From Candidatus Hydrogenedens sp. (lineage in GTDB: Bacteria; Hydrogenedentota; Hydrogenedentia; Hydrogenedentales; Hydrogenedentaceae): 64,000 bases of DNA. This document shows, one piece after another, positions 44,351 to 61,840 of the stretch (positions are counted from its first letter, which is position 1; each line of letters begins with the position of its first letter). The notes under the pieces were generated by a model. That model ran no database searches and was not told the origin of the DNA. It was given only the letters and a program-made list of their open reading frames with translations. Location: contig JBMFRC010000008.1 in NCBI GenBank assembly GCA_049968235.1, positions 32,001-96,000 on the forward strand. The letters are read 5' to 3'. The position numbers and the translations under genes were made by a program.

Positions 44351-44376
44351 GAGGGCAGGGTATATCCCCTGCCCTC
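44351..44376 (+). terminator. GC-rich hairpin (10-bp perfect stem GAGGGCAGGG/CCCTGCCCTC, 6-nt loop) after flagellin 3
   Basis: Read directly. Begins 10 nt after the flagellin-3 stop codon. The downstream U-tract is weak. Confidence 0.5.
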
Positions 44377-44501
44377 TGTCTGGAACATATATTATCAGTA
44401 TTAACCTTTTCAGGGATGGCGTGAAAGACCTGAAAGCATGTCTGATAATTAAAAGAAAGGGAATTCTGGATAAGTGTTAAACACTCAAGGAGGTAAGAAC
44501 T

Positions 44502-46670: not shown

Positions 46671-47882
46671 ATGGGGAATATAAACGAACTTGCTATATTA
46701 GGAGGAGAACCTGTAAGACCTCCCGAAAAAAAGTGGCATTCCTGGCCTGTTTTTGACGAGCAAGAACGAAATGCTATTTTAGAAGTTCTCGAAAGTGGAA
46801 AATGGTTCTATGGTGAGAAAGTAAAACAATTTGAAGAAGTCTATTCTCAGTTTCAAAAAGCGAAATATTGTGTCTCTTGTAATAGCGGAACAACCGCACT
46901 TGAAATAACACTACAAGCAATAGGATTACAACACGGTGAAGAGGTCATAGTCCCCCCTTATACATTTATTGCAACCGCTTCTGCAGTTGTGCGTATGGGT
47001 GGAATTCCTATTTTTGTAGATGTAGACGAAACATGGTGTATGGACCCTGACATAATTGAATCTGCAATTACACCTCGAACAAAAGCCATAATCCCTGTTC
47101 ACTTCGGTGGGAAAATCTGCGATATGGATAAAATTAATGCAGTGGCACAGAAACATAATCTTGTTGTAATTGAAGATGCCTGTCATGCCTGGGGCGGAGC
47201 ATGGAAAGGGAAAGGAGCAGGAACATTAGGGCTTGGAGGTGTATTTAGTTTCCAGATGTCTAAAAATATTACTGCAGGTGAAGGTGGAGCCATTGTTACT
47301 GATGATGAAAATTTTGCGGATATATGTCGTTCTATAAGCAATTGTGGTCGCTCAAAAACGGGTCCCTGGTATTATCATGAACGAATTGGGACCAATGTGC
47401 GAATGAACGAGTTTACCGCAAATATCCTATTAGCACAGTTATCCCGAGCAGAAAAACAACTGCAAATTCGAGAAGCAAATGGTACTTATCTTACCCAGGC
47501 TTTAATGGATATACCCGGTATTTACCCCCAACCCTTAAGTAATCGCATTACACGAAGGGCATATCATCTTATTTGTATTCGAATCAAAGAGGAAGAGTTT
47601 GGTTGTTCTCGAGAATTGTTTGTAAAAGCAGTACATGCGGAAGGATTACCTATAACATCAGGTTATCCATATCCGATTTATAAACAGCCTGCATTCCAGA
47701 ATGCTAACTTTTATGATTATTCACAAACATACTGTCCTATAACAGAAGATTTATGCTATAAGAGTGGTACATGGTTACCCCATCATATTTTACTGGGGAA
47801 AGAAAAAGATATGGAAGACATTGTAAAAATTATCCGTAAAGTGCAGAAACATGCTCCGGAATTAAAAAAATTGAATGCTTAA
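46671..47882 (+). CDS. DegT/DnrJ/EryC1/StrS-family PLP-dependent sugar aminotransferase (ArnB/PseC/PglE-like)
   Basis: 403 aa. Family-typical N-terminus ILGGEPV...W. PLP-lysine block FSFQMSKNITAGEGGAIVTDD. Confidence 0.85.
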   Translation: MGNINELAILGGEPVRPPEKKWHSWPVFDEQERNAILEVLESGKWFYGEKVKQFEEVYSQFQKAKYCVSCNSGTTALEITLQAIGLQHGEEVIVPPYTFIATASAVVRMGGIPIFVDVDETWCMDPDIIESAITPRTKAIIPVHFGGKICDMDKINAVAQKHNLVVIEDACHAWGGAWKGKGAGTLGLGGVFSFQMSKNITAGEGGAIVTDDENFADICRSISNCGRSKTGPWYYHERIGTNVRMNEFTANILLAQLSRAEKQLQIREANGTYLTQALMDIPGIYPQPLSNRITRRAYHLICIRIKEEEFGCSRELFVKAVHAEGLPITSGYPYPIYKQPAFQNANFYDYSQTYCPITEDLCYKSGTWLPHHILLGKEKDMEDIVKIIRKVQKHAPELKKLNA

Positions 47883-48021
47883 AATGCCTATCGAACAATT
47901 CAGACCTGTCTGATATATTTGACTCGTCAGACTCGTCTGATTTGTTCGACTCATCATAATTACAAGGAGAGGTCCTATTACGAAGCAATCTTTCTGGATA
48001 TTATTAATTCTTTTCTTAGGA

Positions 48022-51000
48022 TTGGGGTTAAGAGTCCTTTACCTTTCCGATGCAATAAAAAATCCGGATTTTTCAGCACCCCTACACGATGCGGAATTTA
48101 AAGATTACTGGGCAAGGGCTATCTTATCCGGTAATTATACACCTCCACGGAATGAAGGTAATCCATTTATGGAAGGTCATCCCCTTCCCAATCCACCGGG
48201 CTATCCCTTATTCCTTGCATTGATTTATTGGTTAACAGAAGGTAGTTATCTCGCCGTGCGATGGGTTCAAATTTGTATTGGACTTCTTAATATATTCCTT
48301 GTGTATCTATTAGGCAAAAACCTCTTTGATTATAAAGCCGGGCTTTTTTCTGCATTAGGAGTGGCTACCTACTGGGCGTTTGTCCACTATGATATGGAAC
48401 TTAATCAGGTTACCATCTTTATAACCATAAATTTATTATGTTTCAATTTACTTCTACAGGCATATAAAAAAAATAAATTAGGACTACTTTCCTTAGCAGG
48501 TCTTATATTCGGGATGGGGGCATGGTTCCGTGGCGAAGTGTTTATTCTCATTTTCCCGCTAACAATATTTGTTATGTTCCTTTTTTTTCATCCGGGACGG
48601 CTAAAAACTGTTTTTTACACAGGATTGTTATTCTTAGTTTCTGCACTACTATCTGTGCTTCCATTATCTTTATACAATTACTATCTTTGTGGTTCGTTTA
48701 CTTCAGGCTCACATAATAGCGAATGTAGTATCTCCATCGCTTTTCACCCGGACACACCCGAATACGGTTCATATACACCGGAGATGCTTCGATGGCTCAA
48801 TAAAACGCCTGAGGATACGGTGGAAATATTTGATCTGGACGGAATGACCCTTGGCTTAGGAAAACAATTAGGATTGGAACGAAGAGCAACTTATAAGGAA
48901 TGGAAAAATTATCTTATCTCCGGTGCTATACATAATATAAAAACATATCCATGGCTCAATCTTAAAAAATGCTTAAAACGATTTTTATGGACTTTTTCCC
49001 CACAAGAATTGGATGAAAATAAAGTGATTTATTATGAGCGAGAAGTTTCAACAGTACTAAAATACTTACCTCGTTTTCCTCTCGCAATGAGTTTATTCAC
49101 TTTAAGCCTTATTTTACTCGTTATCTCCTTGTCATCAAAAGGGGCTATACCGATAAAAATAAGCACTTGCTCCTGGAAATTCATATTCGTCTTGTTATTT
49201 TTTGTTGCAACAAATATCAGCATTTTTTCGCTTTTGATAGCAGGAAGTCGATATCGTATATCCCTTCTCCCCTATTTTTTTATTTTTGGTGGTATTGTTT
49301 TTTCGTCATTATGGGAAACGGTCTCGAACAAAAGATGGAATTGGGCTACTTTGATTATTTTTGGTTTCCTTATTCTTTTTTCGTTAGCCCATGTTCCATT
49401 TTTCGATTACCAGCCCAACCGCTCCCGATGGTTAGATGAACGGCGAAAATGTTATCAGAGAATTGGAAAGATAGCGGAAGGAGTACAATTCTTTGAAAAA
49501 TGGTTAGAAAAACATTCAGACGCAGATGCTCATTATCACGCGGGGGTCCTTTGTTATGAACTCAATGAACTAACAAAGGCAGAAGAACATTTTTATACTT
49601 GTCTCAAATTATCACCTGACCATCCATCCGCTCCTTATAATTTAGGTTTGATTTTTGCAAAAAGAGGTGATTGGGCAAAAGCAGGAAAATATTTTGAGGA
49701 AGCCGTAAAAAGAAATCCGAGCAAAGCGGATATGTGGTTCGCATTAGGTTGGGCAACTGAAAACAGTGGTGATTTATCTACTGCATTAGAGCATTACACA
49801 CATGCATTGAATATAAATCCACACCATACTCAGGCATTAAATCATAGTGCCGTAATTATGTTTCAAAAAGGGGAAGGAAAAACTGCAAAACAACATCTTG
49901 AACAGGCAATTCGCATTGACCCTAACTATGTAGATGCACGATTTAATTTGGGTCAAATTCTCTTAGCGGAACGGAAACCTGCAGATGCCTTGAAGCAATT
50001 CATGACTGTTAAAGGGAAGTATCAACCGGAACATGAATTATTAAAATGTATAGGATTATGTTATGTCCAGATGCTTGATTATAAGGAGGCACTAAATTAT
50101 CTCTTAAAAGCAAAGGGAATGAACCCCGAGAAATGGGATGCAGAAGATAGTCTTGCTGTCTGTTACGCAGGATTAGGCATGCGAGAAGAATGTATACGAA
50201 CAATTGAAATATTAGAGGATAAATTATCTAATTCAATACAGGTTTTTAATTTGGGGCATGCATGGGAATTACTGGGAGAATGGGATAAAGCAGAAACTTA
50301 TTATAAAACTGTTATTGAAAAAGATAAAAACAATGCAGATACATACGCAGGATTGGGAAATATTTCTTTAATTCGTGGGGACAAAAACTCCGCTTACATG
50401 TATTTCAAACAGGCATTGGAAATTAACCCACATCAAGTTGGGGCATGGTTCAATTTAATTTTATCATGGGTAGAAAATCGAGAATGGGAAAAAGCAAAAA
50501 CACAGTTAATAGAGTTTATAAATTATTATCCCGAACATATAGAGGCATACTATAATTTAGGGATTGTAAATGAAGCCTTAGGCAATATTGAGGATGCAAA
50601 AAAGTCGTATGAAAAAGTGTTAGAAAAGAAATCAGACCATTCAGGGGCTTTATTCTCCCGCGCTACTATTGCTTTATCGGAAATGGATTTAGAAAATGCA
50701 AAAGAACTATTTGAGAAACTTAAGCCTATTGAACCGTTTAAATCTTTATATCATTTAGGAATTGTTTATTCATTAAAGGAGGATTGGAACAATGCACATG
50801 ATTGTTTCTTAAATTCTTTTTTTATAAATCCTCAACCCTTTTATAATGATTATATATATGCGTTTAATATCGGTAGAAGTTATGACCATCTTGACTGCTT
50901 ATATGAGGCGGAGAAATTCTACCGTATTTCTTTTGAATTGAATAATAATTTCGTAGATGCGAAAGATGCCCTCTCTTTTCTTCTTTTTCAACAAGGAAAT

Positions 51001-52014
51001 ACAGAAGAAGCATATTTTTTGTTAAATTCTATATTCTTATATCAAAAACCTACGAACTGGTCATATTACCACTACTCCCTTGTCTGGGAACACATGAATG
51101 AACCCTCAATAGCGTTAAGTTTTGCAGAACAAGCCAATGCGATAATGCCGAATCAGTCGCCAATCCTTCATCAATTAGGGGGATTATATCGCAAATTGAA
51201 AAATTATAATCTCGCCGAACAATATTTAGAGCAGGCAATGACACTTAACCCTCATGACGCAACAATTACAAAAACATTAGCCTTTTTACATTCCGACCTT
51301 GAGCGGTATAAAGAAGCAAAAGAATTGTTCATAACTTGCACAAATTTGCTTCCTGACGACCCGGAGGTGTATGAAGGACTTGCTGATGTCTATATAAAGA
51401 CCGGCGAATTAAAAAAGGCAGAAGAAAACTATCGCAAAGCATTAGCAATCAAGGATACCCCCACAGTAATTAACAAGTTAGGATTATTACTTGCTGATTT
51501 AAATAAAATCTTTGAGAGTGTTGGACTATTGGAAATAGCCGTTAAATACTTTCCGAATGATGCCATCACACTTACACGACTTGCTGACTTGAAAGTGATT
51601 TTACACTCCGATATAGAAGCAAAAACACTTTATGAACGGGCATTGGCAATAGATACTCAAAATTATCTAACTCATAGAAACTATGCAGATTTGTTAGTCC
51701 GTTCCGGTGAATATGAACTTGCCGAAAAACATTACAAACTTGCCATAGAACTTCACCCCAAAGACCCAGTTGCACAAGCAGGACTGGGATTACTATATGC
51801 TCGTATAAATAAATATGAGGAAGCCAAAAAATATTTGATACCTCTGGCACAAGTGAAGACAGATTTACTTAATGTAAACCAACAACTGACTCAGATATTC
51901 CTTTCAGAAAATCAACCTGAAAAAGCCATTAAATACATCAAACGATGTATACTGGCACAACCAGACCGAAAAGAATTCCGTGAACTTCTTCAACAGGCTA
52001 CTCAGATGCGGTAA
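48022..52014 (+). CDS. GT-C fold membrane glycosyltransferase (PMT/ArnT, GT39/GT83-like) fused to a very long C-terminal TPR array
   Basis: The N-terminal ~470 aa are polytopic. They carry a DE-type loop (HDAEF) and the PPGYPLFLALIYWL block typical of ArnT/PMT loop 1. The remaining ~850 aa are tandem TPRs (many W..LG, A...Y.KA repeats). The annotated start is a TTG, and the first TM helix appears to be encoded upstream of it (see findings). Confidence 0.7.
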   Translation: MGLRVLYLSDAIKNPDFSAPLHDAEFKDYWARAILSGNYTPPRNEGNPFMEGHPLPNPPGYPLFLALIYWLTEGSYLAVRWVQICIGLLNIFLVYLLGKNLFDYKAGLFSALGVATYWAFVHYDMELNQVTIFITINLLCFNLLLQAYKKNKLGLLSLAGLIFGMGAWFRGEVFILIFPLTIFVMFLFFHPGRLKTVFYTGLLFLVSALLSVLPLSLYNYYLCGSFTSGSHNSECSISIAFHPDTPEYGSYTPEMLRWLNKTPEDTVEIFDLDGMTLGLGKQLGLERRATYKEWKNYLISGAIHNIKTYPWLNLKKCLKRFLWTFSPQELDENKVIYYEREVSTVLKYLPRFPLAMSLFTLSLILLVISLSSKGAIPIKISTCSWKFIFVLLFFVATNISIFSLLIAGSRYRISLLPYFFIFGGIVFSSLWETVSNKRWNWATLIIFGFLILFSLAHVPFFDYQPNRSRWLDERRKCYQRIGKIAEGVQFFEKWLEKHSDADAHYHAGVLCYELNELTKAEEHFYTCLKLSPDHPSAPYNLGLIFAKRGDWAKAGKYFEEAVKRNPSKADMWFALGWATENSGDLSTALEHYTHALNINPHHTQALNHSAVIMFQKGEGKTAKQHLEQAIRIDPNYVDARFNLGQILLAERKPADALKQFMTVKGKYQPEHELLKCIGLCYVQMLDYKEALNYLLKAKGMNPEKWDAEDSLAVCYAGLGMREECIRTIEILEDKLSNSIQVFNLGHAWELLGEWDKAETYYKTVIEKDKNNADTYAGLGNISLIRGDKNSAYMYFKQALEINPHQVGAWFNLILSWVENREWEKAKTQLIEFINYYPEHIEAYYNLGIVNEALGNIEDAKKSYEKVLEKKSDHSGALFSRATIALSEMDLENAKELFEKLKPIEPFKSLYHLGIVYSLKEDWNNAHDCFLNSFFINPQPFYNDYIYAFNIGRSYDHLDCLYEAEKFYRISFELNNNFVDAKDALSFLLFQQGNTEEAYFLLNSIFLYQKPTNWSYYHYSLVWEHMNEPSIALSFAEQANAIMPNQSPILHQLGGLYRKLKNYNLAEQYLEQAMTLNPHDATITKTLAFLHSDLERYKEAKELFITCTNLLPDDPEVYEGLADVYIKTGELKKAEENYRKALAIKDTPTVINKLGLLLADLNKIFESVGLLEIAVKYFPNDAITLTRLADLKVILHSDIEAKTLYERALAIDTQNYLTHRNYADLLVRSGEYELAEKHYKLAIELHPKDPVAQAGLGLLYARINKYEEAKKYLIPLAQVKTDLLNVNQQLTQIFLSENQPEKAIKYIKRCILAQPDRKEFRELLQQATQMR

Positions 52015-53578
52015 CAGTTTTCGGATGGCTTAAAACCCGCTCCAGATAAGGAATCAGAGTATCCGCCATAATTTTTGCTTTCAGTTTTACCCCTTCCTGA
52101 CGCATGTGACAAATATCACCGAAATATTTTGTGCCCGCAGGCATATTCTCCGCAACCGGAATATAAAGGAGCCCATTATTCTCACAATAATCTCGCAATT
52201 GTTGATTAAATCTCTTCATAACATCGGAATATTGCTGAAAAGAGGAATTCGCCCAGCCCCATTCCTTATCATAATAAAAATCATAATAATCACGTTCCTC
52301 CTTGTTTACTTTTTCACGGTAAGGGACACCAATACTGGAAATACACATATCTATACCCCTTGACAAAAAAGAATGAAGTATATAATCAATATATCTAAAA
52401 ATGTATTGATTGATATATTCATCTATCTCTTCTTGCGGATATTGTAAAACTGACCTTATTTGTCTTCGCATAAATAGAGAGAAAAGTAATGCAATACGTG
52501 TTATTACCCGTTTACTATCAAAAGCATGGGAAAATACTTCGTAAACTACATCGTTAATTCCTTCATATAAAATCACCATGTCAGGTTGAAAATATAAATA
52601 ATCCGGTAATTTCGCACAATGCTTCTTTAAAACCATACCAGAAATACCACAATTAAAGACTTCAATACGATTTTCTCCGAAATGTTTTTTCAATTCTTGC
52701 TCTAAGAATTTTGGATAGGTCTCTTGATTAGAAATACCCTCTTCCGTAGTAGACGCACCAATACACAGGATGCGGAAAACTCCTTCGGGTTTCGGAACCT
52801 TAAAATCTTTATCTCTATAACCAAAATTATTGATTCGAAATGCCATCTCTGTAGAGTTCCGATGAGGCATATAGGAGAAATAATTTATGTCCCATAAGTC
52901 ATTCACAGATAACTTTCCTACCCATGGATTGATAGAATCATTTTTCCCTCTATACGGTAGAGCAAACACATAGAAAGAGTAATTTTCAAGATTTTCGCGT
53001 AAAGGGTAGAAAAAAAATTTATATGGTTTTTCCTGCATCGTCTCATGCCATAAAAAAGCCCTATATGATTGAAACATATCCTTCGGAATTGTCTTTATAA
53101 TTTCTTGATATATCAACAGATTGTCATTAATCCCAAAAGCCTTATCTGTGGGAGAACACGTTATATCAAAACTTTTTTTATTAATGTTGAGTTTGAACTG
53201 CTTTATGTCATAAATAGTTCGGAAAGCCTCCTGAAAAGTTTCATCCTCATCAAAATAGAAGTTAAAACGATAACTCCACATTTCTAATGGGTCGGGCTCT
53301 GGCAGACACCATTCATCGCCAACATATAATTGTTGCAGAGAAAACAAATTTTTCCCCTCCCCATAATGAACTCCTTCTTCTTTACCCTCGTCCCATTCCT
53401 TTATTAACAATTCACCACGACGGATACGAACAAATTTGTTTGTCTTTTCGATATATTTCCACCTTAATCGTTCAAATAATTCTAGAGATAAACAGATGAC
53501 AATAAACCAGAATAAAATGAAAAAACAATAACCCAAGATATAAACAAATCTCTTCGTTTTTTTGTGCTTCAACTCCAT
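51998..53578 (-). CDS. membrane-anchored SGNH/GDSL-family hydrolase (paralog P1)
   Basis: N-terminal TM helix. NNFGYRD motif followed by SGNH blocks I (RILCIGASTTEEG), II (NCGISG), III (YEGINDV) and V (GDICH). Confidence 0.6.
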   Translation of the reverse strand: MELKHKKTKRFVYILGYCFFILFWFIVICLSLELFERLRWKYIEKTNKFVRIRRGELLIKEWDEGKEEGVHYGEGKNLFSLQQLYVGDEWCLPEPDPLEMWSYRFNFYFDEDETFQEAFRTIYDIKQFKLNINKKSFDITCSPTDKAFGINDNLLIYQEIIKTIPKDMFQSYRAFLWHETMQEKPYKFFFYPLRENLENYSFYVFALPYRGKNDSINPWVGKLSVNDLWDINYFSYMPHRNSTEMAFRINNFGYRDKDFKVPKPEGVFRILCIGASTTEEGISNQETYPKFLEQELKKHFGENRIEVFNCGISGMVLKKHCAKLPDYLYFQPDMVILYEGINDVVYEVFSHAFDSKRVITRIALLFSLFMRRQIRSVLQYPQEEIDEYINQYIFRYIDYILHSFLSRGIDMCISSIGVPYREKVNKEERDYYDFYYDKEWGWANSSFQQYSDVMKRFNQQLRDYCENNGLLYIPVAENMPAGTKYFGDICHMRQEGVKLKAKIMADTLIPYLERVLSHPKTVTASE

Positions 53579-55056
53579 TAACTTTTTCCTGATTGTGCTT
53601 TAATATATTTCACCAAATATGGTGTCGCTAATTCTGATTTTTTTCGAATTCCTTGTAATTTTTGATGACATAAATCATTAAAATAGGATGGGGATTCGTT
53701 CTGAAACATTTCATACATCGGGATATATAGAACATTCTCATTATTAAACTTTTTGCTTAACAGTCTATTATATACATCCAGAACATGGCTATACATACGA
53801 TAGTTTACGAAATTACCTCCCCACCATCTTTTTGTAACAAACTGGAAATAATCTTTCTCCTGCCATGTCATCGAGGAATAATTGGGGGCTGGCATACTCA
53901 TTACTGCAAACAATATACCTTTCTGCTGAAGATAATTGTTTATTTTTTCTATCTGGCTTAATATATCTTTATTAATATCACTTTGTATTTGTATGTCGTT
54001 GGGAAGAAAGAATAGGGGAAAAATATTCCGGCATAAATTTGAATGGATAAGTATTTTTTTTATTCCGTTCAGATGATTTAACCAGTAAGGCAGTAAAATG
54101 TGGGTTATATCATTTGCCCCTTCACAATAGAGAACAAGATTTGGTTCCATCAACAGATAATCTGGTAATCTCAGCCATAATTTATGAGCAGAAATGCCCG
54201 GTATTCCAGCATTAATCACTTCAATTTTATATTGTTGCTGGAATTGTTCCAATAAAAGTTTTTCCATGATATTTGGATAGGTTTCTTGCTCTGTAGGACC
54301 CTCTTCTGTGGTCGAACCACCGATACATACAATTCGGAACACACCTAATGGTTTAGGAACTACCACATCCTCATCACGAAATCCAAAATTGTTCGTATGA
54401 AATTCATAAGAGTTCAATTGTGCATGTTTCTTATACTCAAAATAAGGTATTTCCCAGATTCCGTTTCTATCCTTTATATTTCGGGGATAATTATTATTAC
54501 CTGCTTTATACCAGCATACCATGACCCCACGATTTTTCGTGTCCATTTTATAATAAACAAAAAGGTCGGAAATACTTTCCTCACCTTTTGCAAAAGAATG
54601 ATAATATTTTGAATAAACTTCCTGGCTTTGAATTGGTATTTCCTTCTCTAATATATTTATCAGTTCTTCATCAAAGTAATTTTTCGTAGTGGGTTCAGGC
54701 AGGTATGTAATTATCTCTTTTTTATCCATATCTTTTACAAGGGTGGTTATTTGATAAAAAGAAGAAAACAATTGTCTGTCGGTTTCATCCAATTGTAAGA
54801 AAAACTTTGCCCGATTGGCATACCATTGAGACATATCAGGAGAGTGAAACTTTTCTACAGATTGCAGTGGTTTTTGCGACACAACTTCACTGTGGCTCCA
54901 TGGAGGTTTATCATTCAAAGAGGAGATGAGAGGATTCTTTTGTATAACAAGATATTCATATATACGCACTACACATTCAGCAACTGCAATTGCAACAATA
55001 ATCCAGAGAAAAAAAATCAATATTTTACCGATACTTTTTACGAAATGATATTTCAT
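53578..55056 (-). CDS. membrane-anchored SGNH/GDSL-family hydrolase (paralog P2)
   Basis: N-terminal TM helix. NNFGFRD motif followed by blocks I (RIVCIGGSTTEEG), II (NAGIPGIS), III (CEGANDI) and V (NDLCH). Stop overlaps the P1 start by 1 nt. Confidence 0.6.
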   Translation of the reverse strand: MKYHFVKSIGKILIFFLWIIVAIAVAECVVRIYEYLVIQKNPLISSLNDKPPWSHSEVVSQKPLQSVEKFHSPDMSQWYANRAKFFLQLDETDRQLFSSFYQITTLVKDMDKKEIITYLPEPTTKNYFDEELINILEKEIPIQSQEVYSKYYHSFAKGEESISDLFVYYKMDTKNRGVMVCWYKAGNNNYPRNIKDRNGIWEIPYFEYKKHAQLNSYEFHTNNFGFRDEDVVVPKPLGVFRIVCIGGSTTEEGPTEQETYPNIMEKLLLEQFQQQYKIEVINAGIPGISAHKLWLRLPDYLLMEPNLVLYCEGANDITHILLPYWLNHLNGIKKILIHSNLCRNIFPLFFLPNDIQIQSDINKDILSQIEKINNYLQQKGILFAVMSMPAPNYSSMTWQEKDYFQFVTKRWWGGNFVNYRMYSHVLDVYNRLLSKKFNNENVLYIPMYEMFQNESPSYFNDLCHQKLQGIRKKSELATPYLVKYIKAQSGKS

Positions 55057-57269
55057 TGAGGTGCCGGGAAGGTTTGCTGAGGGTTATTTTTCAGTCGCTC
55101 CAATTCCGTGGCAGGACGAAGGTCTGTGGGGTCAAGTTCTATCGCTTTCTGAAAATATTCAATTGCTTTCTCATGATTTCCTAACCCTAAATATGCCCTA
55201 CCCATACAGGTATGAGCAAATGAATCATTGGGTAATAATTGAAATGCCTTTTCCAACGCTGAAATAGCTGATTCATATTGCCCTCGATTAATGTGAATAT
55301 CAGCAATATTAATCCAGTTCCATGGGTATTGTTCCGGTTTCAATTCAACAGCCTTTGTAAACGCTTCGATGGCAAGGTCCCATTCCTGTAATTCTTTATA
55401 GGACATTCCAAGATAGGAGTATGCCTGTGCATAACCGGGGTCAAGTTGAATCACATGTTTGCAGGTATCAACTGCAGACCAATAATCGTTAACTCGCCAG
55501 AATTCCAGAGCCATAGCACATAAATCTTCTAATAAGGCTACCGATTTCTTGTTGTACGTTTTCACAGAGTCCTGTAAAGAAAATATCTGGTGGTAAACAA
55601 CCACTCGCTGAATGCCAGCAAATTCCTCTGCTTTGTAAATAATCCCTTTTTCCTTTAAATATTTTTCAAAATGATAAAGCGGTGCAGACTCAAAATAATC
55701 CCCCTGAACAACAATCCATAATTTTGCATTGGGTCTTCGTACTGGCAACAGTTTTGTAATCAGAAATTCAGCAATTTCGGCAGTATTCTCAAACTGCGAA
55801 CCATAACAAACAACATTGGGCACAGGACCTAAATTGTATAGGAAAACACGCTTCCATAATTCATTGTTTACAAGGATAATGTCTTCCGCTTTTGCATTAT
55901 GCTTGATAAATACACCTGCATTCTTCCAATCGGTGTGTTGCGGTTTCCCGAGGATTAAACTACCCTGGTACAAATACAAAAGTAGAAATGCGGTAAAGAG
56001 CAGTCGTTTTACCCATTTCTTACTTTCCACGCTATTAATAGTATAGCCAATAATCAGATACAGGGCAATCGAACTATGGAGAGTATATCTTGGCATAATA
56101 CAGGGTCGCCATAAGTGCGAAATAAAGTATAAAAATAAAGGAGGAAATAGCCACCAGATACAATAGAGCAGGATAAAAGAATTATTTGTTTTTCCAATAT
56201 TATTCGACTTTAATTCCTTATTATCTTTTTCCCTGAAAAAATAAGTCCAGATAGCCCCGACAAGGCAAAAGACATATAAAACTGCCATTACCCCCCCTAT
56301 AAAATATTGCTGTGATACAATAATCCGTGCAGTTTCTTTGCTAAAAAAATGCATCCAGAAATCGGGTTCCGCACGAAGTTGGTAAGTCCAACCAATACAA
56401 TCATCGGCAACAAGGTCGCCTATAAATTCACGGAGTGTCGGTATCTTCATCCAGGAAGAGGTCATATCCGGCGACCAAAAATTAATAGTTAGAATATACA
56501 ACACAGAAGGTAGTGAAATAAGGAACAGAGGAATAGCCCATTTCATCAGAAAAAGGATTTCTTCCCTCAAATAATCTTTATAAAACCACTCATTCGGTCT
56601 CCCATTGCGGTATCTCCAGGCACGAATGAGCAATCGGTCTACCAGTAAATATACCCCCTGAACCATAACAACCAGAGTCGCAAAGGGATGTGTCCAGAGA
56701 AGGAGAAATGTGATGATAAGGTAATAGATAAATGTTCTTCGTCTCTGTTCGCGATACCAATATATAAAAAAAAGCATGGACAGAATAGATAGGAGGGTGA
56801 ACAAACTATACATTCGTATCTCCTGTGAAAACTGCCGATGTATAGGCGACAGAGCCACGAGAAGACAGGCAATAAGCCCCGTAGAAGCATTAAAACTTAT
56901 ATTTCCTAAAATGTATGTGCTATAAATAACCGTCAATCCAATAAAGACCGAAAGAAGACGGAGAGAATAATATGATTCATCAATATAGGTATGCCAAAAA
57001 TATTCAATAGAATAATATAAAGGCATGGTAGCAGGGTCCATAGAGCGATTCTTTATCAAGAAATGCAGGATATTCATTGAAGGTTCATAATGAACACCCT
57101 GAGCCCAACGCGTAAAATTCGGCGAAGATTCATACTCAGCCAGCGGTTTCAGGTGAACAACACTACTAAATTCGTCCCACCATATAGATTCGTAACTTAA
57201 ACCTACAGAACGATATAAATAACCTGCAAGTAAAATTAAAAATAAATATAGAAATACTTTTGAATTCAT
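55053..57269 (-). CDS. GT-C fold membrane glycosyltransferase (PMT/ArnT-like) with C-terminal TPR domain
   Basis: 738 aa. N-terminal TM helix followed by a SIWWDEF DE-type loop. ~12 TM. C-terminal ~200 aa of TPRs. Overlaps the downstream SGNH gene by 4 nt. Confidence 0.7.
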   Translation of the reverse strand: MNSKVFLYLFLILLAGYLYRSVGLSYESIWWDEFSSVVHLKPLAEYESSPNFTRWAQGVHYEPSMNILHFLIKNRSMDPATMPLYYSIEYFWHTYIDESYYSLRLLSVFIGLTVIYSTYILGNISFNASTGLIACLLVALSPIHRQFSQEIRMYSLFTLLSILSMLFFIYWYREQRRRTFIYYLIITFLLLWTHPFATLVVMVQGVYLLVDRLLIRAWRYRNGRPNEWFYKDYLREEILFLMKWAIPLFLISLPSVLYILTINFWSPDMTSSWMKIPTLREFIGDLVADDCIGWTYQLRAEPDFWMHFFSKETARIIVSQQYFIGGVMAVLYVFCLVGAIWTYFFREKDNKELKSNNIGKTNNSFILLYCIWWLFPPLFLYFISHLWRPCIMPRYTLHSSIALYLIIGYTINSVESKKWVKRLLFTAFLLLYLYQGSLILGKPQHTDWKNAGVFIKHNAKAEDIILVNNELWKRVFLYNLGPVPNVVCYGSQFENTAEIAEFLITKLLPVRRPNAKLWIVVQGDYFESAPLYHFEKYLKEKGIIYKAEEFAGIQRVVVYHQIFSLQDSVKTYNKKSVALLEDLCAMALEFWRVNDYWSAVDTCKHVIQLDPGYAQAYSYLGMSYKELQEWDLAIEAFTKAVELKPEQYPWNWINIADIHINRGQYESAISALEKAFQLLPNDSFAHTCMGRAYLGLGNHEKAIEYFQKAIELDPTDLRPATELERLKNNPQQTFPAPQ

Positions 57270-57405
57270 ACCTAAGTTTTCGTTATCGCTTTATAGCCAA
57301 ATCTTTTTATACCTCAAATTATTTATAATAACATATCATAATAAGGATTGAATATTTGATGAACGCATAATAGATGCTTTTTAATTAAACCTATGGAGTA
57401 CGCCG

Positions 57406-58623
57406 ATGCGATCGTTTTTAAAAAATATATTATTAGCATTAGGGTCAATACTTGTGGTTCTTATATTGACCATGGTATTGGACCGACTGTTAGGGAACAT
57501 CCTGCCCAAGCCATTTCCTGAAGGCACACATGATTTAATTTTTCCTCCCTTATCGCGACAGGAATTCGCCTCAGTTGATTTTAAATATGTGGTAGAAACT
57601 AATTCATTAGGGATTCGGGACCGAGAAATACAAAGACCTAAAAGCAGTAATAGTTACCGCATCATAGCAGTTGGTGATTCCTATACTTACGGTTGGGGCG
57701 TGAATATTGAGGAAACCTGGCTCCGTGGACTGGAACAAAAACTGTTATTGGAGAACAAACAGATTGAAACTGTGAATTTAGGCAAACCCGGGACAGGTCC
57801 TCCTTTCTATGCAGAAATTACCCGCACTATTGTCCCCTTACTTGAACCCGATTTGATACTGGTCGGAATTTTACAGGGAAACGATATTGCTTCTTCAGGA
57901 ACGGAAGGGTTAGAGCAAATGAGTTCGGGATTGGTCCGCTGGACAAAATTATTTTACCCAAACTTTGTCCGTACAGTAGAAATGATGCAATTGACGCGTT
58001 CTCTTGAAACGCGGACACAGGAGCGACCCCCAGAAAAAACAACCGCAGAAGACAACGCAAAATGGTCTGCCAATACCGCAAAGGATTTTTATGAAAAAAT
58101 GTCCGCAGAGGAAAAACAAAGATTTGATAATTTCGATGCCGAAGTAAAACAAGCATTTTTTGATGGGCTATTAAATCCTTATATGATTGACCTTGCATTG
58201 AAGAACAAACACATTTATACACTAACATTAAACCCTGATGACCCATGGATTCAGCAATGTATTGGGAATATGGCAAAAGCATTACAAATCATAAAATCGG
58301 TAGCAAGTCAAAACGATGCTCAAGTTGCTGTCGTTAGTATCCCGGATGGCCCGTATGTGAATGAGGTTGCATGGAAAAATATTCAGCGTGTTGGATTCGA
58401 TGTAGTTCCAGACATGCTAACTTCCGATGCACCCGATAAAGTTATTCAGATTGCTTGTGAAAAGGTAGGTATCCCCTGTTATACCGTCTCCTTTGCATTT
58501 CGCCAGAGAAAACAAGACCCCAACTTGTTCTTTACACTGGATGGGCATTTGACCGCTGAAGGACATAAATTATTAGCAGAGACGCTTGCTCCTCAACTAC
58601 AGAAGTGGCTAACCAAAAAATGA
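57406..58623 (+). CDS. membrane-anchored SGNH/GDSL-family hydrolase (paralog P3)
   Basis: N-terminal TM helix. NSLGIRD motif followed by block I (RIIAVGDSYTYGWG), block III (GNDIAS) and block V (LDGHLTAEGH). Confidence 0.65.
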   Translation: MRSFLKNILLALGSILVVLILTMVLDRLLGNILPKPFPEGTHDLIFPPLSRQEFASVDFKYVVETNSLGIRDREIQRPKSSNSYRIIAVGDSYTYGWGVNIEETWLRGLEQKLLLENKQIETVNLGKPGTGPPFYAEITRTIVPLLEPDLILVGILQGNDIASSGTEGLEQMSSGLVRWTKLFYPNFVRTVEMMQLTRSLETRTQERPPEKTTAEDNAKWSANTAKDFYEKMSAEEKQRFDNFDAEVKQAFFDGLLNPYMIDLALKNKHIYTLTLNPDDPWIQQCIGNMAKALQIIKSVASQNDAQVAVVSIPDGPYVNEVAWKNIQRVGFDVVPDMLTSDAPDKVIQIACEKVGIPCYTVSFAFRQRKQDPNLFFTLDGHLTAEGHKLLAETLAPQLQKWLTKK

Positions 58624-59774
58624 ATAAAACAACAATACAAAAAAATATAAGCAAGAAAAAAATTGTTCTATTTACCTTTTTACCCCTCGCTATCTTACTT
58701 TTTAGCCTGGAACTGATAGCACGAATCATAGAGATATGGCTTCCTCCTATGGTGACAGATATCGGTTTAGGTTTTACAGAAGATTCCCGATTATTTATCC
58801 CTGACCCTTATGACAGCCGATATTTGATAACACATCCCAATAAGACTGTTGCTTTTCAAAATCAACGATTTCTAAAAAACAAACCATCAGGAACTTTACG
58901 CATATTTTTTCTCGGAGGTTCCTCTGTAAATTATGTTAACTACGAATTGCCAAATTTATCCGAACGATTGGAAGAAACACTTAAACCAAGATACAAAGAA
59001 GTCGAGATTATTAATTGTGGGGGACTTTCGTACGGGACACATCGACTTGTATTGATTGCTCGTGAGATTGTGAACTATAACCCTGACCTTGTAATGATAT
59101 ATTCCGGACATAATGAATTTGAAGAAATTGAACAATTACATTTAGCACGAGTGCAAATAACGAAATTACAACGGGTTTTGTTCTCCTCCGCAATGATGCG
59201 ATTTATTCGCGACCGAATCGCAACCTACCAGATATCCCAATTGGAAAAAGAGCATAATCGCAGAATGTTGGCTCAATCATTACCCGATGCAGGTAAAGGA
59301 TGGAATCATATTTTCACACCCCAGGAAATTGCAGAACGAATGGAAAAATACAAAAATAATCTCAACGAAATTATACAGTTATGTAAAGAGAAAAATATAA
59401 AAGTCGTTATTGCAACCGTTCCTTCAAACTATATAAAGCCCAATTTAATAGGGAAAACTGCAGAAGAATATGAACAAGTGTTGCAGTTAATTAAAGAAGA
59501 GAAATATAAAAAAGCGTATGAATTAGGTAGGAAAATTATTCGTGAAACTTCGCCACGACATCAATCTTCCGACCTTGAAAATAACATTGTGCGAGAACTC
59601 GCAGAGAAACATCATATTCCTCTGGCTGATGTTTTATCTGCAGTAGAGCGGGCAGAACCCCACCACATTCCCGGTGAAACTTTGTTTAATGACCATTGTC
59701 ACTTAAATCCAGAAGGCAATAGTATTATGATACATACATTTGAGGAAAAAATCTTACAGGTATTGGCAGAATAA
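58605..59774 (+). CDS. membrane-anchored SGNH/GDSL-family hydrolase (paralog P4)
   Basis: N-terminal TM helix. Block I (RIFFLGGSSVNY), II (NCGGLSYG), III (SGHNEFEE) and V (NDHCHLNPEGN). Overlaps P3 by 19 nt. Confidence 0.6.
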   Translation: MANQKMNKTTIQKNISKKKIVLFTFLPLAILLFSLELIARIIEIWLPPMVTDIGLGFTEDSRLFIPDPYDSRYLITHPNKTVAFQNQRFLKNKPSGTLRIFFLGGSSVNYVNYELPNLSERLEETLKPRYKEVEIINCGGLSYGTHRLVLIAREIVNYNPDLVMIYSGHNEFEEIEQLHLARVQITKLQRVLFSSAMMRFIRDRIATYQISQLEKEHNRRMLAQSLPDAGKGWNHIFTPQEIAERMEKYKNNLNEIIQLCKEKNIKVVIATVPSNYIKPNLIGKTAEEYEQVLQLIKEEKYKKAYELGRKIIRETSPRHQSSDLENNIVRELAEKHHIPLADVLSAVERAEPHHIPGETLFNDHCHLNPEGNSIMIHTFEEKILQVLAE

Positions 59775-59833
59775 CAAACGATTTTAACCACCATATACTT
59801 ACAAGCAGAAGTGATTGAATGACAAGAAACTTT

Positions 59834-61840
59834 TTATTGGGGGGTAAGTTTTAATAAAGCGACACCATGACGGGGAATAGATGTGGAGAAACCTTTTTGG
59901 TAAACTCCCAAATCCTTTTGTCTCCATAAATCCCTGACTTTTTGATTTTCTACCAGTCCCAATTCCTTCCATTGTACGGCTACATTTTGTTCAATCTCAT
60001 CCAGATTAAACAAACCTATAGCAGTGGAACCATCGAAAAGTGACTTTAACCATATTTCATAACATTTTTCTTTATTAATAATTATAGGATGTCCTTGAAT
60101 ACCCTTTGAATCCTGATTAATTTCGATAACTTCAGGATTACAGAGCACATTTTTTGTAAATTCATCCAATCGAGTCATATCTCCACTATAAAAAAGAGGA
60201 GAAGCCATAAGACACCATAAAGACATGTAAGAATATTGTTCACTAGGAGTTAGGGGGCAGGATTTAGGCTCACCCATCACACTGGCATCTCCGCTATAAC
60301 CGATGAGAATATAATCTGGGTCATTCCATGCACCGGGACCTGCATATTCCCAGTATCGAGCGTTTCTGCGTGCGACCTCATGATATTGTAATAACTCAAA
60401 ACCGAGGTCGCCCGCTGTTCGCCAGCAATTTCCACCCACTTCTTTACCCCATTTCCAGACCTGTCCCATACCATACTGACACAAGTTAAAGACAATATCG
60501 CGGTCTAATTTCTTTAAGATAACTCCCATTTCTCTATAAGGTTTCTTTAGATTCTCAATTTTTTTTGGGGATAGGATATCTGTATAAGAACACCAGTCAT
60601 ATTTCAAAAAATCGAAACCCCAGTCTGCAAATTGTTTGGCATCTTGTTCCTCATGTCCATAGGTTCCTGTAAAGCCAGCACAGGTTTTAGGTCCCGGTGA
60701 GGTATATATGCCTGCACGAAGCCCTTTAGAATGAATATATGCCGTTAATCCCTTCATATCAGGAAAGTATTTGTTGGGTAGAATATTCCCACTATCATCT
60801 CGTGCAGGACCGACACGCATCGGGTCACGATGATTTTCTGCATTTGCCCAGCAATCGTCAATACTTACATACTGGTAACCTACATCTGCCATACCGGATG
60901 AAACCATCAGGTCCGCAGATTGTTTCATTATATCCTCCGTAATTCTATCGTAATGTGTATACCAATGATTCCAGCCCATTGGGGGTGTTAATGCCAGTGT
61001 ATCTCCAACCACAATATTTAAATAATTCTGGTCGCTACCATATTGGTTTTGTGCCACGATTTTAACTGTATAGTTCTTCGGTTCACGACTTATAATAGTC
61101 CCATGTATAATTCCATCCGGGTCCACCGTTAATCCTTCAGGTAAACCTTCTAATTGAAACTGTATAGGTCTTTCTCCTGTACAGGGAATACGGAATATAA
61201 AAGGAGAGCCTGGTCGAACACCCGTAACACGCGGGCTATTTATTCTCGGAGAACGAGCGGGTGTCGGAGTAAGAATATAAGTTTCCTCTTCTGGTTTCAT
61301 TACAAGTTCTGGTTTTCTCTCTGTCATTATAAAAACCGCTTCTGCTATATCGACATGGTCATAAGAAATATCATCATAAGCATCATTAATAGAAATAGTG
61401 AAATAGGATATTCCCCGTAAATCAATAGAAACTTTTTCGGGTTCTTCTCCTCCTTTAAAAGTTCGCGTTGCATATAACAATTTGTTATCACCAAAAAATC
61501 GGGCGATTATAGACCCATTCCCTTCTGTTTCATCATCAACTCCTATAATGGCTTCAAATTTTGATGCATAACCATTGAGTTGAACATAGAAAACCACATT
61601 TGCATGTGTGCCAACACCACGATTATATATTGTTCCATGTAATTTTATCGGATTTCCCTGACAGGATAGATTTTTTTTAGGATGTTCTGCCCAGCCTTGT
61701 TTAACAATTTTCAAGTTCAGGTCATCTAAATATGTTATAGCCTCCTCGCAGTAACTATTCCATATACAAAAAAACGCAATACAAATTACAGAGATGAATA
61801 CAAATAGATGGAACTTGAAATTTGATGGAGCAAAAAACAT
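59834..61840 (-). CDS. secreted GH27 alpha-galactosidase with N-terminal NPCBM-like carbohydrate-binding domain
   Basis: GH27 blocks YQYVSIDDCW and FLKYDWC. N-terminal NPCBM-like segment (GVGTHANVVF...). Signal/anchor at the N-terminus. Confidence 0.85.
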   Translation of the reverse strand: MFFAPSNFKFHLFVFISVICIAFFCIWNSYCEEAITYLDDLNLKIVKQGWAEHPKKNLSCQGNPIKLHGTIYNRGVGTHANVVFYVQLNGYASKFEAIIGVDDETEGNGSIIARFFGDNKLLYATRTFKGGEEPEKVSIDLRGISYFTISINDAYDDISYDHVDIAEAVFIMTERKPELVMKPEEETYILTPTPARSPRINSPRVTGVRPGSPFIFRIPCTGERPIQFQLEGLPEGLTVDPDGIIHGTIISREPKNYTVKIVAQNQYGSDQNYLNIVVGDTLALTPPMGWNHWYTHYDRITEDIMKQSADLMVSSGMADVGYQYVSIDDCWANAENHRDPMRVGPARDDSGNILPNKYFPDMKGLTAYIHSKGLRAGIYTSPGPKTCAGFTGTYGHEEQDAKQFADWGFDFLKYDWCSYTDILSPKKIENLKKPYREMGVILKKLDRDIVFNLCQYGMGQVWKWGKEVGGNCWRTAGDLGFELLQYHEVARRNARYWEYAGPGAWNDPDYILIGYSGDASVMGEPKSCPLTPSEQYSYMSLWCLMASPLFYSGDMTRLDEFTKNVLCNPEVIEINQDSKGIQGHPIIINKEKCYEIWLKSLFDGSTAIGLFNLDEIEQNVAVQWKELGLVENQKVRDLWRQKDLGVYQKGFSTSIPRHGVALLKLTPQ

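What the first reader, a model, noticed from the sequence alone, without database searches (positions are those of the whole stretch)
51998..59774. Duplicated module architecture: GT-C/TPR followed by tandem SGNH pair; two SGNH pairs with 1–19 nt overlaps
The minus-strand operon GT-C/TPR(738 aa) – SGNH P2 – SGNH P1 is overlap-coupled (4 nt and 1 nt). The plus-strand pair P3–P4 overlaps by 19 nt. P1 and P2 are clear paralogs: they share an FG[YF]RD motif, a CIG[AG]STTEEG block I, a PDYL...EG.ND block and a D.CH block, yet differ in their N-terminal ~200 aa. P3 and P4 share the same SGNH core with different N-domains. This pattern suggests serial duplication and diversification, with the enzymes possibly acting on different substrates or positions. 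Paired, overlap-coupled paralogs may form heteromers.
Basis: seen in the sequence. Interest (0 to 1): 0.5.

Follow-up and report, generated by a model that had tools for sequence, protein, structure and literature searches.

The report
Conserved glycosyltransferase–esterase envelope gene cluster
This stretch of a Candidatus Hydrogenedens genome holds a membrane sugar-transferase gene flanked by four genes for membrane-anchored esterase-like enzymes; the arrangement is kept across the phylum, two of the four are an old tandem duplicate, and the biochemical target is unknown, so it is a modestly interesting uncharacterised cluster rather than a surprise.

Summary
All four SGNH proteins keep their catalytic motifs, in register with the canonical GDSL serine.

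- P1 and P2 are homologous over their whole length (28% identity over 507 aa, E 8e-59). Their N-terminal domains are diverged (21%) but collinear, not different.
- The P3/P4 overlap is most likely 4 nt (ATGA, ATG at 58620), not 19 nt.
- A [GT-C + SGNH pair] module was not duplicated. P1/2, P3 and P4 are three anciently separated SGNH lineages. P3 and P4 are not each other's closest relatives. Only P1/P2 look like a tandem duplication within one lineage (NJ bootstrap 64%).

The core unit is [P4–P3] <-> [GT-C/TPR – P1/2-type SGNH]. It recurs in about 20 Hydrogenedentota genomes, usually with a single P1/2-type gene. Every family member I could place taxonomically is from that phylum.

The 738-aa protein models as a PMT/ArnT-like GT-C enzyme with an invariant DE motif and, by inference, a periplasmic TPR domain.

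Most likely this is an envelope-glycan modification module: lipid-linked sugar transfer plus O-acyl editing by membrane-anchored SGNH enzymes. Substrate, acyl donor and any heteromers are untested. Interest is moderate to low.

The parts
55053..57269 (-). GT738: GT-C fold glycosyltransferase (PMT/ArnT-like). About 11 TM helices, an alpha/beta domain at about residues 448-564, and four C-terminal TPR repeats at about 577-728. First gene of the minus-strand operon.
53578..55056 (-). P2: membrane-anchored SGNH protein with the N-domain typical of the GT-linked clade. Its start overlaps the GT738 stop by 4 nt (ATGA).
   Evidence: TM helix at residues 12-30. The P2 clade has 100% bootstrap. Catalytic S/G/N/D/H are invariant in the 6 P2 orthologs.
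51998..53578 (-). P1: paralog of P2. Its start overlaps the P2 stop by 1 nt (TAATG). Its 3' end overlaps the convergent GT1330 gene by 17 nt.
57270..57405 (.). 136-nt divergent intergenic region between GT738 and P3, presumably holding the promoters of both operons.
   Evidence: Coordinates; sequence. Divergent spacing of 99-280 nt is kept in most related loci. The sigma-70 consensus scan found no site here.
57406..58623 (+). P3: membrane-anchored SGNH variant. It has a GDS block I, a G-(N/D)-D block III and a D-x-H block V.
   Evidence: TM helix at residues 7-25. G90, D91, S92, G126, D160, D379 and H381 are invariant in 19 orthologs; N159 is N in 13, D in 5 and E in 1. 310 clusters at 50% identity match at E<=1e-30.
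58620..59774 (+). P4: membrane-anchored SGNH protein, the most conserved of the four. The likely start is ATG 58620, giving an ATGA overlap with the P3 stop. The GTG at 58605 is the longest-ORF alternative.
   Evidence: P0118, 384 aa, 100%. S106, G139/G140, N170, D363 and H366 are invariant in 17 orthologs, in 389-aa numbering.
47977..52014 (+). GT1330: a second, distantly related PMT_2 GT-C protein with a very long TPR array. It follows a DegT aminotransferase gene and converges on P1. It is linked to the cluster only in the Hydrogenedens lineage. Its start is probably a non-canonical ATT at 47977; the first canonical start in the ORF list is TTG 48022.
   Evidence: PMT_2 56.7 bits plus many TPR families. 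Orthologs converge on P1 in L001, L006, L007, L008, L010 and L011. Start-codon analysis.
46671..47882 (+). DegT/DnrJ/EryC1-family sugar aminotransferase directly upstream of GT1330. It is lineage-specific context, not part of the core module.
   Evidence: Pfam E 9.5e-111. The same order is seen in L001 and L008.

Best explanation
The locus is a conserved cell-envelope module that so far appears specific to Hydrogenedentota. Its core is two divergent, translationally coupled operons: [P3-P4] and [GT-C/TPR - P1/2-type SGNH].

Shown:
- GT738 has a PMT/ArnT-like GT-C fold with an invariant Asp-Glu pair in its first extracytoplasmic loop.
- All four SGNH proteins have one N-terminal membrane anchor and intact catalytic residues.
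- The three SGNH families are old and distinct.
- P1 and P2 are a lineage-restricted tandem duplicate, and both copies stay catalytically intact and evolve fast.

Inferred:
- GT738 takes a sugar from a polyprenyl-phosphate carrier at the outer face of the inner membrane and adds it to an envelope acceptor: a glycan, a lipid-linked intermediate, or a protein held by the TPR domain.
- The SGNH enzymes are tethered in the same membrane with their domains in the periplasm. They remove or move O-acyl (probably acetyl) groups on that same glycoconjugate. Each family handles a different position or step.
- The P1/P2 duplication split or widened one of those specificities. One copy may serve each of the two GT-C/TPR enzymes (GT738-P2 and GT1330-P1).
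For: Conserved module:
- 20 GT738-type loci from Hydrogenedentota genomes. A P1/2-type gene lies immediately downstream in 19, often with a 4-nt overlap. P3 is divergent upstream in about 16 and P4 in about 14.
- All 66 genome loci with the family pattern come from Hydrogenedentota-type MAGs. Named homologs of P1, P4 and GT738 are all Hydrogenedentes.

GT-C:
- A GT2-GtrA fusion (polyprenyl-phosphate sugar synthase type) lies next to the module in two distant genomes.
- Other sugar genes nearby: DegT, PGM/PMM and a GNAT, GT4 and a Wzy_C-TPR protein.

SGNH:
- Catalytic residues are invariant in every clade. The serine is in register with a solved esterase.
- There is a single N-terminal TM helix behind a basic N-terminus.
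- The P1/2 N-domain is strong in 27 of 27 GT-linked members (144-178 bits) and weak or absent in 43 solo paralogs.

Duplication:
-.
Against: - No substrate, donor or product is known, and no relative has been characterised. The literature search for this gene combination found nothing.
- No AT3 or MBOAT acyl translocase was found among the Pfam-scanned ORFs of the 64-kb window (about 45 ORFs of at least 150 aa) or in four orthologous loci. Acyl transfer therefore lacks an obvious donor, and the idea of several esterases acting on one glycan is unprecedented guesswork.
- The best structural match of P1 is CgnD, an SGNH-fold leader peptidase (PMC10070186), so amide substrates are possible.
- Three GT738+P1/2 loci lack P3 and P4 (L013, L017, L028), so the four genes are not an obligate unit.
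- Loci were found through P1/2 or P4, which inflates the apparent linkage.
- The periplasmic placement of the TPR domain rests only on counting helices in a model.
- Bootstrap for P1+P2 as sisters is only 64%.
Confidence: 0.5

Rival explanations
1. A [GT-C/TPR + SGNH pair] module was serially duplicated, and the overlap-coupled paralog pairs (P1-P2 and P3-P4) work as heteromers.
For: - By position the window reads GT-C, SGNH, SGNH, GT-C, SGNH, SGNH.
- P1 and P2 are paralogs with coupled translation.
- P3 and P4 are adjacent in about 14 of 20 loci, with a conserved 4-nt overlap.
- In L008 a P1 ortholog stays with DegT-GT1330 without GT738 or P2. A GT1330-like gene also sits beside a solo P1/2-type gene in L049. 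Two GT-C/SGNH pairings are therefore conceivable.
Against: - P1 and P2 are each other's closest relatives. They do not pair with P3 and P4 as a module duplication would predict.
- P3 and P4 are less similar to each other than each is to P1/2.
- GT738 and GT1330 are barely alignable outside the first 210 aa and the TPRs.
- Most lineages have one P1/2-type gene.
- No fused SGNH-SGNH or GT-C-SGNH proteins were found.
- Heteromer formation was not tested.
Confidence: 0.15
2. The SGNH proteins are nutritional enzymes: surface or periplasmic carbohydrate esterases or lipases that strip acyl groups from imported polysaccharide or lipid. Their position next to the GT-C is incidental.
For: - The nearest solved structures are acetylxylan, acetyl-mannan and sialate esterases.
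- The window and related loci carry glycoside hydrolases: alpha-galactosidase 59834-61840, GH36 and a GH5-like protein.
- A solo relative sits with GH30 and a ceramidase.
- The family is expanded to several copies per genome.
Against: - The 4-nt translational coupling of GT-C and the P1/2-type gene is kept down to about 30% protein identity.
- A distinct N-domain is found only in the GT-linked members.
- All four are anchored by an uncleaved-looking TM helix and not secreted.
- The flanking hydrolases are not conserved between lineages.
Confidence: 0.15
3. A lipid A or LPS remodelling unit. An ArnT-like GT-C adds an amino sugar made through the DegT (ArnB-family) aminotransferase. The SGNH enzymes act as acyloxyacyl-hydrolase-like deacylases on lipid A at the outer face of the inner membrane.
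For: - DegT sits directly upstream of GT1330.
- The membrane tether places the active sites near lipid substrates.
Against: - The best GT-C match is a protein O-mannosyltransferase, not ArnT.
- TPR domains point to a protein or polymer partner.
- DegT and GT1330 are linked only in one lineage.
- No ArnA, ArnC or ArnD-like genes were seen in the window.
Confidence: 0.1

Closest known systems
PMT (GT39), ArnT (GT83) and eukaryotic TMTC1-4 GT-C glycosyltransferases
   Same: - An acidic DE pair in the first extracytoplasmic loop.
- Like TMTCs, a C-terminal TPR array follows the membrane domain. TMTC architecture and its ArnT-like fold are described in PMC7801869.
   Different: - Only about 10-12% identity to any solved GT-C.
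- A profile of the membrane domain finds no PDB sequence.
- There is an extra alpha/beta domain between the TM region and the TPRs.
- Donor and acceptor are unknown.
- None of those enzymes is encoded with SGNH partners.
Periplasmic glycan O-acetylation systems: OatA/OafA (AT3-SGNH fusions), PatA-PatB, AlgI-AlgJ-AlgX
   Same: - A membrane-tethered or membrane-adjacent extracytoplasmic SGNH domain with a Ser-His-Asp triad acts beside an integral membrane partner. This is established knowledge of those systems.
- One solo relative is encoded next to an AT3 gene.
   Different: - The conserved membrane partner here is a GT-C glycosyltransferase, not an AT3 or MBOAT acyl translocase. None of those is in the window or the orthologous loci.
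- Three or four separate SGNH genes are present instead of one.
Carbohydrate esterases of the SGNH fold (acetylxylan esterases such as AlAXEase 7ddy and Axe2; sialate O-acetylesterase)
   Same: - Blocks I-III align residue for residue.
   Different: - Those enzymes are soluble, secreted catabolic enzymes.
- P1-P4 have TM anchors, a long helical insert, a family-specific pre-block-I motif (N-x-x-G-x-R) and, in P1/P2, a 200-aa N-domain with no detectable relatives.
Gtr-type three-component periplasmic glycosylation (GtrA flippase, GtrB GT2, GtrC GT-C)
   Same: In two distant genomes a GT2-GtrA fusion lies next to the module. This fits the logic of making a polyprenyl-phosphate sugar, flipping it and transferring it with a GT-C enzyme.
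   Different: - No GT2 or GtrA gene is adjacent in this window.
- Gtr systems have no SGNH or TPR components.
Leptospira LA_2486 / LA_2490 SGNH/GDSL esterase families (NCBIfam NF047474, NF047475)
   Same: P3 gives weak matches over the N-x-x-G-x-R motif and block I (E 5e-4 and 2e-3).
   Different: Scores of 18-19 bits are far below the 300-325 bit family cutoffs, so P3 is not a member. Those families are themselves uncharacterised.

Membership tests
SGNH/GDSL hydrolase superfamily | Block I nucleophile Ser in a G-x-S motif near the N-terminus of the domain | tested here: met
   S276 (P1 numbering) is invariant in 29 family members and in the P1, P2, other GT-linked and solo groups. P3 S92 and P4 S106 are invariant. 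The Ser aligns with the GDS Ser of 7ddy.
SGNH/GDSL hydrolase superfamily | Block II Gly and block III Asn (oxyanion hole) | tested here: met
   P1/2: G311 and N342 invariant. P4: G139/G140 and N170 invariant. P3: G126 invariant, but the block III position is N in 13, D in 5 and E in 1 of 19 orthologs, so P3 is a variant at this position.
SGNH/GDSL hydrolase superfamily | Block V D-x-x-H catalytic pair | tested here: met
   P1/2 D488 and H491, and P4 D363 and H366, are invariant. P3 instead has an invariant D379-x-H381, one residue shorter.
SGNH/GDSL hydrolase superfamily | Pfam PF13472 score at or above the gathering threshold (32.9 bits) | tested here: met
   P1 41.2, P3 33.2 and P4 37.3 bits. 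P2 is marginally below at 32.6 bits.
SGNH/GDSL hydrolase superfamily | Three-layer alpha/beta/alpha SGNH fold | tested here: met
   [not shown]
GT-C glycosyltransferases (PMT/ArnT-like, Pfam PMT_2) | Multi-pass GT-C membrane fold | tested here: met
   [not shown]
GT-C glycosyltransferases (PMT/ArnT-like, Pfam PMT_2) | Conserved acidic motif in the first extracytoplasmic loop | tested here: met
   W31-D32-E33 directly after TM1 is invariant in 15 and in 33 homologs.
GT-C glycosyltransferases (PMT/ArnT-like, Pfam PMT_2) | Pfam PF13231 score at or above the gathering threshold (26.1 bits) | tested here: not met
   GT738 scores 21.6 bits, although most of its homologs carry a precomputed PF13231 hit. 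GT1330 passes with 56.7 bits.
GT-C glycosyltransferases (PMT/ArnT-like, Pfam PMT_2) | Use of a polyprenyl-phosphate-linked sugar donor | not testable with these tools
   Only indirect evidence: a GT2-GtrA fusion lies adjacent in L004 and L071.
TMTC-type O-mannosyltransferases | GT-C membrane domain followed by a lumenal or periplasmic TPR array | tested here: met
   TPR_1 102.9 bits at residues 580-720. The model shows four TPR repeats after the TM domain. The periplasmic side is inferred from about 11 TM helices. This is an architectural resemblance only; orthology to TMTCs was not tested.
AT3/MBOAT-dependent glycan O-acyltransferase systems (OatA/OafA, PatAB, AlgIJX) | An AT3 or MBOAT acyl-translocating membrane protein fused to or encoded with the SGNH protein | tested here: not met
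   No Acyl_transf_3 or MBOAT hit among about 45 window ORFs of at least 150 aa or in L001, L004, L071 and L073. Met only for a solo relative in L074 and L032.
Gtr-type periplasmic glycosylation | GtrB-like GT2 and GtrA flippase encoded with the GT-C enzyme | tested here: inconclusive
   Present as a GT2+GtrA_DPMS_TM fusion next to the module in L004 and L071. Absent from the window among ORFs of at least 150 aa; smaller ORFs were not scanned.
Leptospira LA_2486/LA_2490 SGNH families (NCBIfam) | Score at or above the NCBIfam cutoff (300-325 bits) | tested here: not met
   P3 scores 19.3 and 17.8 bits.

The most novel reading that the evidence does not exclude
The module is a previously undescribed kind of periplasmic glycan-editing complex. 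Three different membrane-anchored SGNH enzymes dock on a GT-C glycosyltransferase and its TPR scaffold. Docking would use the conserved acidic/Arg motif at the end of their TM anchors and the N-domain specific to the GT-linked clade. Sugar addition would then be coupled directly to acyl transfer or removal without an AT3 or MBOAT partner. This would be a phylum-specific envelope pathway of Hydrogenedentota.
Probability: 0.2. Interest if true: 0.55.

Novelty: new variant of a known kind. Interest (0 to 1): 0.3.

Why it matters
Hydrogenedentota have no well-studied cultured members and their envelope chemistry is unknown. A gene set kept across the phylum gives a concrete handle on a lineage-specific surface glycoconjugate: a PMT/ArnT-like GT-C enzyme with a TPR domain plus three distinct membrane-tethered SGNH families. 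If the SGNH enzymes work physically with the GT-C enzyme, this would add a new partner class for periplasmic SGNH proteins, which so far are known with AT3 or MBOAT acyl translocases. It would also provide a bacterial model for TPR-bearing GT-C enzymes of the TMTC type. As it stands, the finding is an uncharacterised but ordinary-looking cluster of known enzyme classes with one old tandem duplication.

Tried and rejected
- Exact look-up of P1 on public contigs: not on record. Orthologs were used instead.
- Sigma-70 promoter and terminator scan of 51800-60000: counts equal to shuffles and nothing in the divergent intergenic region.
- DNA repeat search: only short chance matches, so no recent duplication or gene conversion.
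- Literature searches for SGNH + GT-C + TPR and for Hydrogenedentes lipase/glycerol: 0 papers. 213 papers mention Hydrogenedentes; none of the 15 top-ranked titles concerns this cluster.
- PDB sequence searches: the full-length GT738 profile was swamped by TPR proteins, and the membrane-domain-only profile found nothing.
It was redone with database homologs.
- The afdb50 fold library was unavailable, so the P1 N-domain remains without any structural relative.
- Rosetta-stone fusions: long ORFs in L048, L060 and L043 carry only the SGNH domain. GT738 homologs of 800-900 aa carry no SGNH domain.
- AT3 partner: phmmer with the L074 AT3 protein found only its ortholog in L032.
- Flagellin glycosylation was considered because four flagellin genes lie 6 kb away. 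It was rejected because that adjacency is absent in L004, L071 and L073 and GT-C enzymes act outside the cytoplasm.
- Taxonomy of distant P3 relatives: the cluster look-up returned no organism names.

Full report
**1. What is there**

The ORF table confirms six genes:

| Gene | Coordinates | Strand | Length |
|---|---|---|---|
| GT1330 | 48022-52014 | + | 1330 aa |
| P1 | 51998-53578 | - | 526 aa |
| P2 | 53578-55056 | - | 492 aa |
| GT738 | 55053-57269 | - | 738 aa |
| P3 | 57406-58623 | + | 405 aa |
| P4 | 58605-59774 | + | 389 aa as the longest ORF |

The junction sequences read TAATG for P2/P1 (1-nt overlap) and ATGA for GT738/P2 (4-nt overlap).

At the P3/P4 junction an ATG at 58620 forms ATGA with the P3 stop. 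This start gives the 384-aa protein held by NCBI (P0118, 100% identity and coverage). In the ortholog locus L001 the only possible ORF is 384 aa with a 4-nt overlap.

All four SGNH candidates hit Pfam Lipase_GDSL_2. P1 scores 41.2, P3 33.2 and P4 37.3 bits against a cutoff of 32.9, and P2 scores 32.6. GT738 has strong TPR hits and a sub-threshold PMT_2 hit. GT1330 has a clear PMT_2 hit and a very long TPR array.

**2. Relationships among the four SGNH proteins**

- P1 against P2: 28% identity over 507 aa, E 7.6e-59, covering residues 10-513 and 4-486.
- Their N-terminal 240/219 residues alone still align collinearly at 21% identity, E 3e-5. The N-domains are diverged, not different.
- P1/2 against P3 or P4: only the SGNH core aligns, at E about 1e-8. 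P3 against P4: 23% identity, E 7e-5.
- Family profiles give P1/2-P3 8e-16, P1/2-P4 1e-17 and P3-P4 4e-11. P3 and P4 are not each other's closest relatives.
- The four-way alignment keeps the motifs in register. A profile alignment to the solved esterase 7ddy places the Ser of G-A-S-T-T on the Ser of G-D-S, and also aligns blocks II and III.
- Catalytic positions are invariant in the P1 clade (8 sequences), the P2 clade (6), other GT-linked members (13) and solo paralogs (43), and in the P4 orthologs.
- P3 is a variant. It has GDS, a block III that is N in 13, D in 5 and E in 1 of 19 orthologs, and an invariant D-x-H instead of D-x-x-H.
- No nucleotide-level repeats remain in the region.

**3. 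Organism and distribution**

P1 is 100% identical to a protein of a Candidatus Hydrogenedens MAG. All named homologs of P1, P4 and GT738 are from Hydrogenedentes.

A scan of species-representative genomes with the block I peptide found 66 loci. All are in Hydrogenedentota-type MAGs, and there are often several per genome. Some of these MAGs are labelled 'uncultured Nitrospirales'.

An exhaustive search with P3 found 310 clusters at 50% identity with E<=1e-30, matched over the full length. Their taxonomy could not be retrieved.

**4. Synteny**

I called ORFs in all loci and classified them with phmmer. This gave 20 distinct GT738-type loci.

- A P1/2-type gene follows directly in 19 of them, frequently with a 4-nt overlap.
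- P3 lies divergently upstream in about 16 and P4 in about 14.
- Exceptions are L013, L017 and L028, which have no P3 or P4, and L020, where all genes are on one strand.
- The same core is seen in loci reached through P4 (L071 and L073) and in a 5.1-Mb chromosome at about 30% P1 identity.
- Only the Hydrogenedens lineage (window, L001, L006, L007, L010, L011) has the P2-P1 tandem together with the convergent DegT-GT1330 unit.
- L014 has a separate pair of P1/2-type genes, and L019 and L073 have two P4 genes.
- Flanking genes differ between lineages but are often sugar-related: a GT2-GtrA fusion, GT4, a Wzy_C-TPR protein, PGM/PMM and a GNAT, and DegT.
- Caveat: loci were ascertained through the SGNH genes, so linkage frequencies are biased upward.

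**5. Duplication history**

In an NJ tree of 76 family members, the GT-linked proteins cluster together. The P1 and P2 clades each have 100% bootstrap and are sisters with 64% support. The GT-linked clade as a whole has 47%. This fits a tandem duplication in the Hydrogenedens lineage, but an older duplication with losses is not excluded.

Identity between the window and L001 orthologs is 90% (P4), 89% (P3), 89% (GT738), 83% (GT1330), 75% (P2) and 65% (P1). The duplicates therefore evolve fastest while keeping their catalytic residues.

The roughly 200-aa N-domain scores 144-178 bits in all 27 GT-linked members. It is weak (median 22 bits, 17 of 43) or undetectable in the solo paralogs. This ties the N-domain to the GT-C partnership.

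**6. Structures**

P1 was modelled with 29 sequences and has pLDDT 87. It shows a long N-terminal helix (the TM anchor), an alpha/beta N-domain, and an SGNH domain with a helical insert.

- Foldseek agrees.
- CgnD is an SGNH-fold hydrolase that removes a leader peptide (PMC10070186). The fold alone therefore does not fix the chemistry.

GT738 was modelled with 33 sequences and has pLDDT 90.3. It shows about 11 TM helices, an alpha/beta domain at 448-564 and four TPR repeats.

- W31-D32-E33 after TM1, and H144, R152, H194, R388 and R394, are invariant.
- With N-in topology and an odd helix count, the TPR domain would be periplasmic. This is an inference.
- The architecture parallels eukaryotic TMTC enzymes, whose membrane domain is ArnT-like (PMC7801869).

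**7. Topology of the SGNH proteins**

Each has a basic N-terminus followed by one hydrophobic helix. This predicts type II anchoring with the catalytic domain outside the cytoplasm.

All three families keep an acidic residue, with an Arg nearby, at the outer end of that helix:
- P1/2: E33, invariant in the 29-sequence alignment and near-invariant across all clades (E in 39 of 43 solo paralogs), followed by R37, which is conserved only as the family consensus.
- P4: E36 and R40.
- P3: D26 and R27.

The motif is also present in solo paralogs, so it may reflect membrane-surface positioning and not GT-C docking.

**8. Function**

Shown:
- a conserved gene module;
- a GT-C fold with its catalytic motif;
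- intact SGNH catalytic sets;
- membrane anchors.

Inferred:
- The GT-C enzyme uses a polyprenyl-phosphate sugar. This is supported indirectly by the adjacent GT2-GtrA genes in two genomes.
- The SGNH enzymes edit O-acyl groups on the same envelope glycoconjugate.

Against a classical O-acetyltransferase system:
- No AT3 or MBOAT gene was found among the Pfam-scanned ORFs of the 64-kb window or in four orthologous loci.
- Only a solo relative (L074, with its ortholog in L032) sits in an operon of SGNH, alpha/beta-hydrolase, AT3, GH30 and ceramidase.

Each is listed with its evidence.

In L008 a P1 ortholog remains convergent with DegT-GT1330 although GT738, P2, P3 and P4 are absent from the 10 kb upstream. 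In L049 a GT1330-like gene neighbours a solo P1/2-type gene. After the duplication, P2 may therefore serve GT738 and P1 may serve GT1330.

**9. Verdict**

The P1/P2 duplication and diversification hold. The heteromer idea is untested and is not required ancestrally.

The cluster is built from known enzyme classes in a combination I could not find described. It appears restricted to one candidate phylum. Its function remains inferred. Interest is 0.3, and I rate it a new variant of a known kind.

Noticed in passing
window 41695-45317 (+): Four tandem ORFs of 271-276 aa. The first was confirmed as a short flagellin (Flagellin_N + Flagellin_C). The orthologous region of L001 has four flagellin genes followed by FlaG. 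They lie about 6 kb from the cluster, but this adjacency is not conserved in other lineages.
   Followed up: partly
window 47938-48022 (+), start of GT1330: The first canonical start (TTG 48022) cuts off TM1. The in-frame upstream sequence encodes ITKQSFWILLILFLGLGL, matching TM1 of the L001 ortholog, but has no ATG, GTG or TTG. An ATT at 47977 lies 4 nt after AGGAGAGG, suggesting a non-canonical start. L007 has the same ATT and L006 lacks it.
   Followed up: partly
window 51998-52014: The 3' ends of the convergent genes GT1330 and P1 overlap by 17 nt. The overlap is kept in orthologous loci (20 nt in L001).
   Followed up: partly
L074 7001-13705 (ortholog in L032 7152-10403): A short solo relative of P1/P2 (450 aa, about 33% identity) heads an operon of SGNH, alpha/beta-hydrolase, Acyl_transf_3, GH30 and alkaline ceramidase. 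This is the only AT3 partner seen for the family, and the gene set looks glycolipid-related.
   Followed up: partly
L008 9980-16891: A P1 ortholog (57% identity) stands alone and is convergent with DegT-GT1330. The 10 kb upstream holds a Zn ABC transporter and an SDR, with no GT738, P2, P3 or P4. This hints that P1 is tied to GT1330.
   Followed up: partly
N-terminal anchors of P1 (res 14-37), P2, P3 (7-27), P4 (16-40 in 389-aa numbering): All three SGNH families conserve an acidic residue with a nearby Arg at the outer end of the TM helix: E33/R37, D26/R27 and E36/R40. Its function is unknown.
   Followed up: no
window 57827-58282 (-): A 151-aa ORF antisense inside P3. It is probably spurious and was not examined further.
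   Followed up: no
window 33323-34009 (+): A small protein with two LAB_N (lipid A biosynthesis N-terminal) domains. It may be relevant to lipid-linked sugar handling but lies 14 kb from the cluster.
   Followed up: no
window 15082-21595 (-): An operon of NuoE-like, NuoF-like, Fe-S/molybdopterin-like and pyridine-nucleotide oxidoreductase subunits. It resembles an NAD(P)-linked hydrogenase or formate-dehydrogenase-type electron-transfer complex.
   Followed up: no
Loci L008, L010, L023, L031, L032, L037, L039, L043, L044, L050, L061, L062, L064: MAGs titled 'uncultured Nitrospirales/Nitrospiraceae' carry loci collinear with, and up to 57% identical to, the Hydrogenedens cluster. The record titles are probably taxonomic mislabels.
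   Followed up: no
L004 1-577 and L071 15752-18661: A 969-aa Wzy_C (O-antigen ligase / O-oligosaccharyltransferase-like) protein fused to TPR repeats lies a few kb from the module in two distant genomes. It sits with a GT4 and a heparinase II/III-like gene.
   Followed up: no
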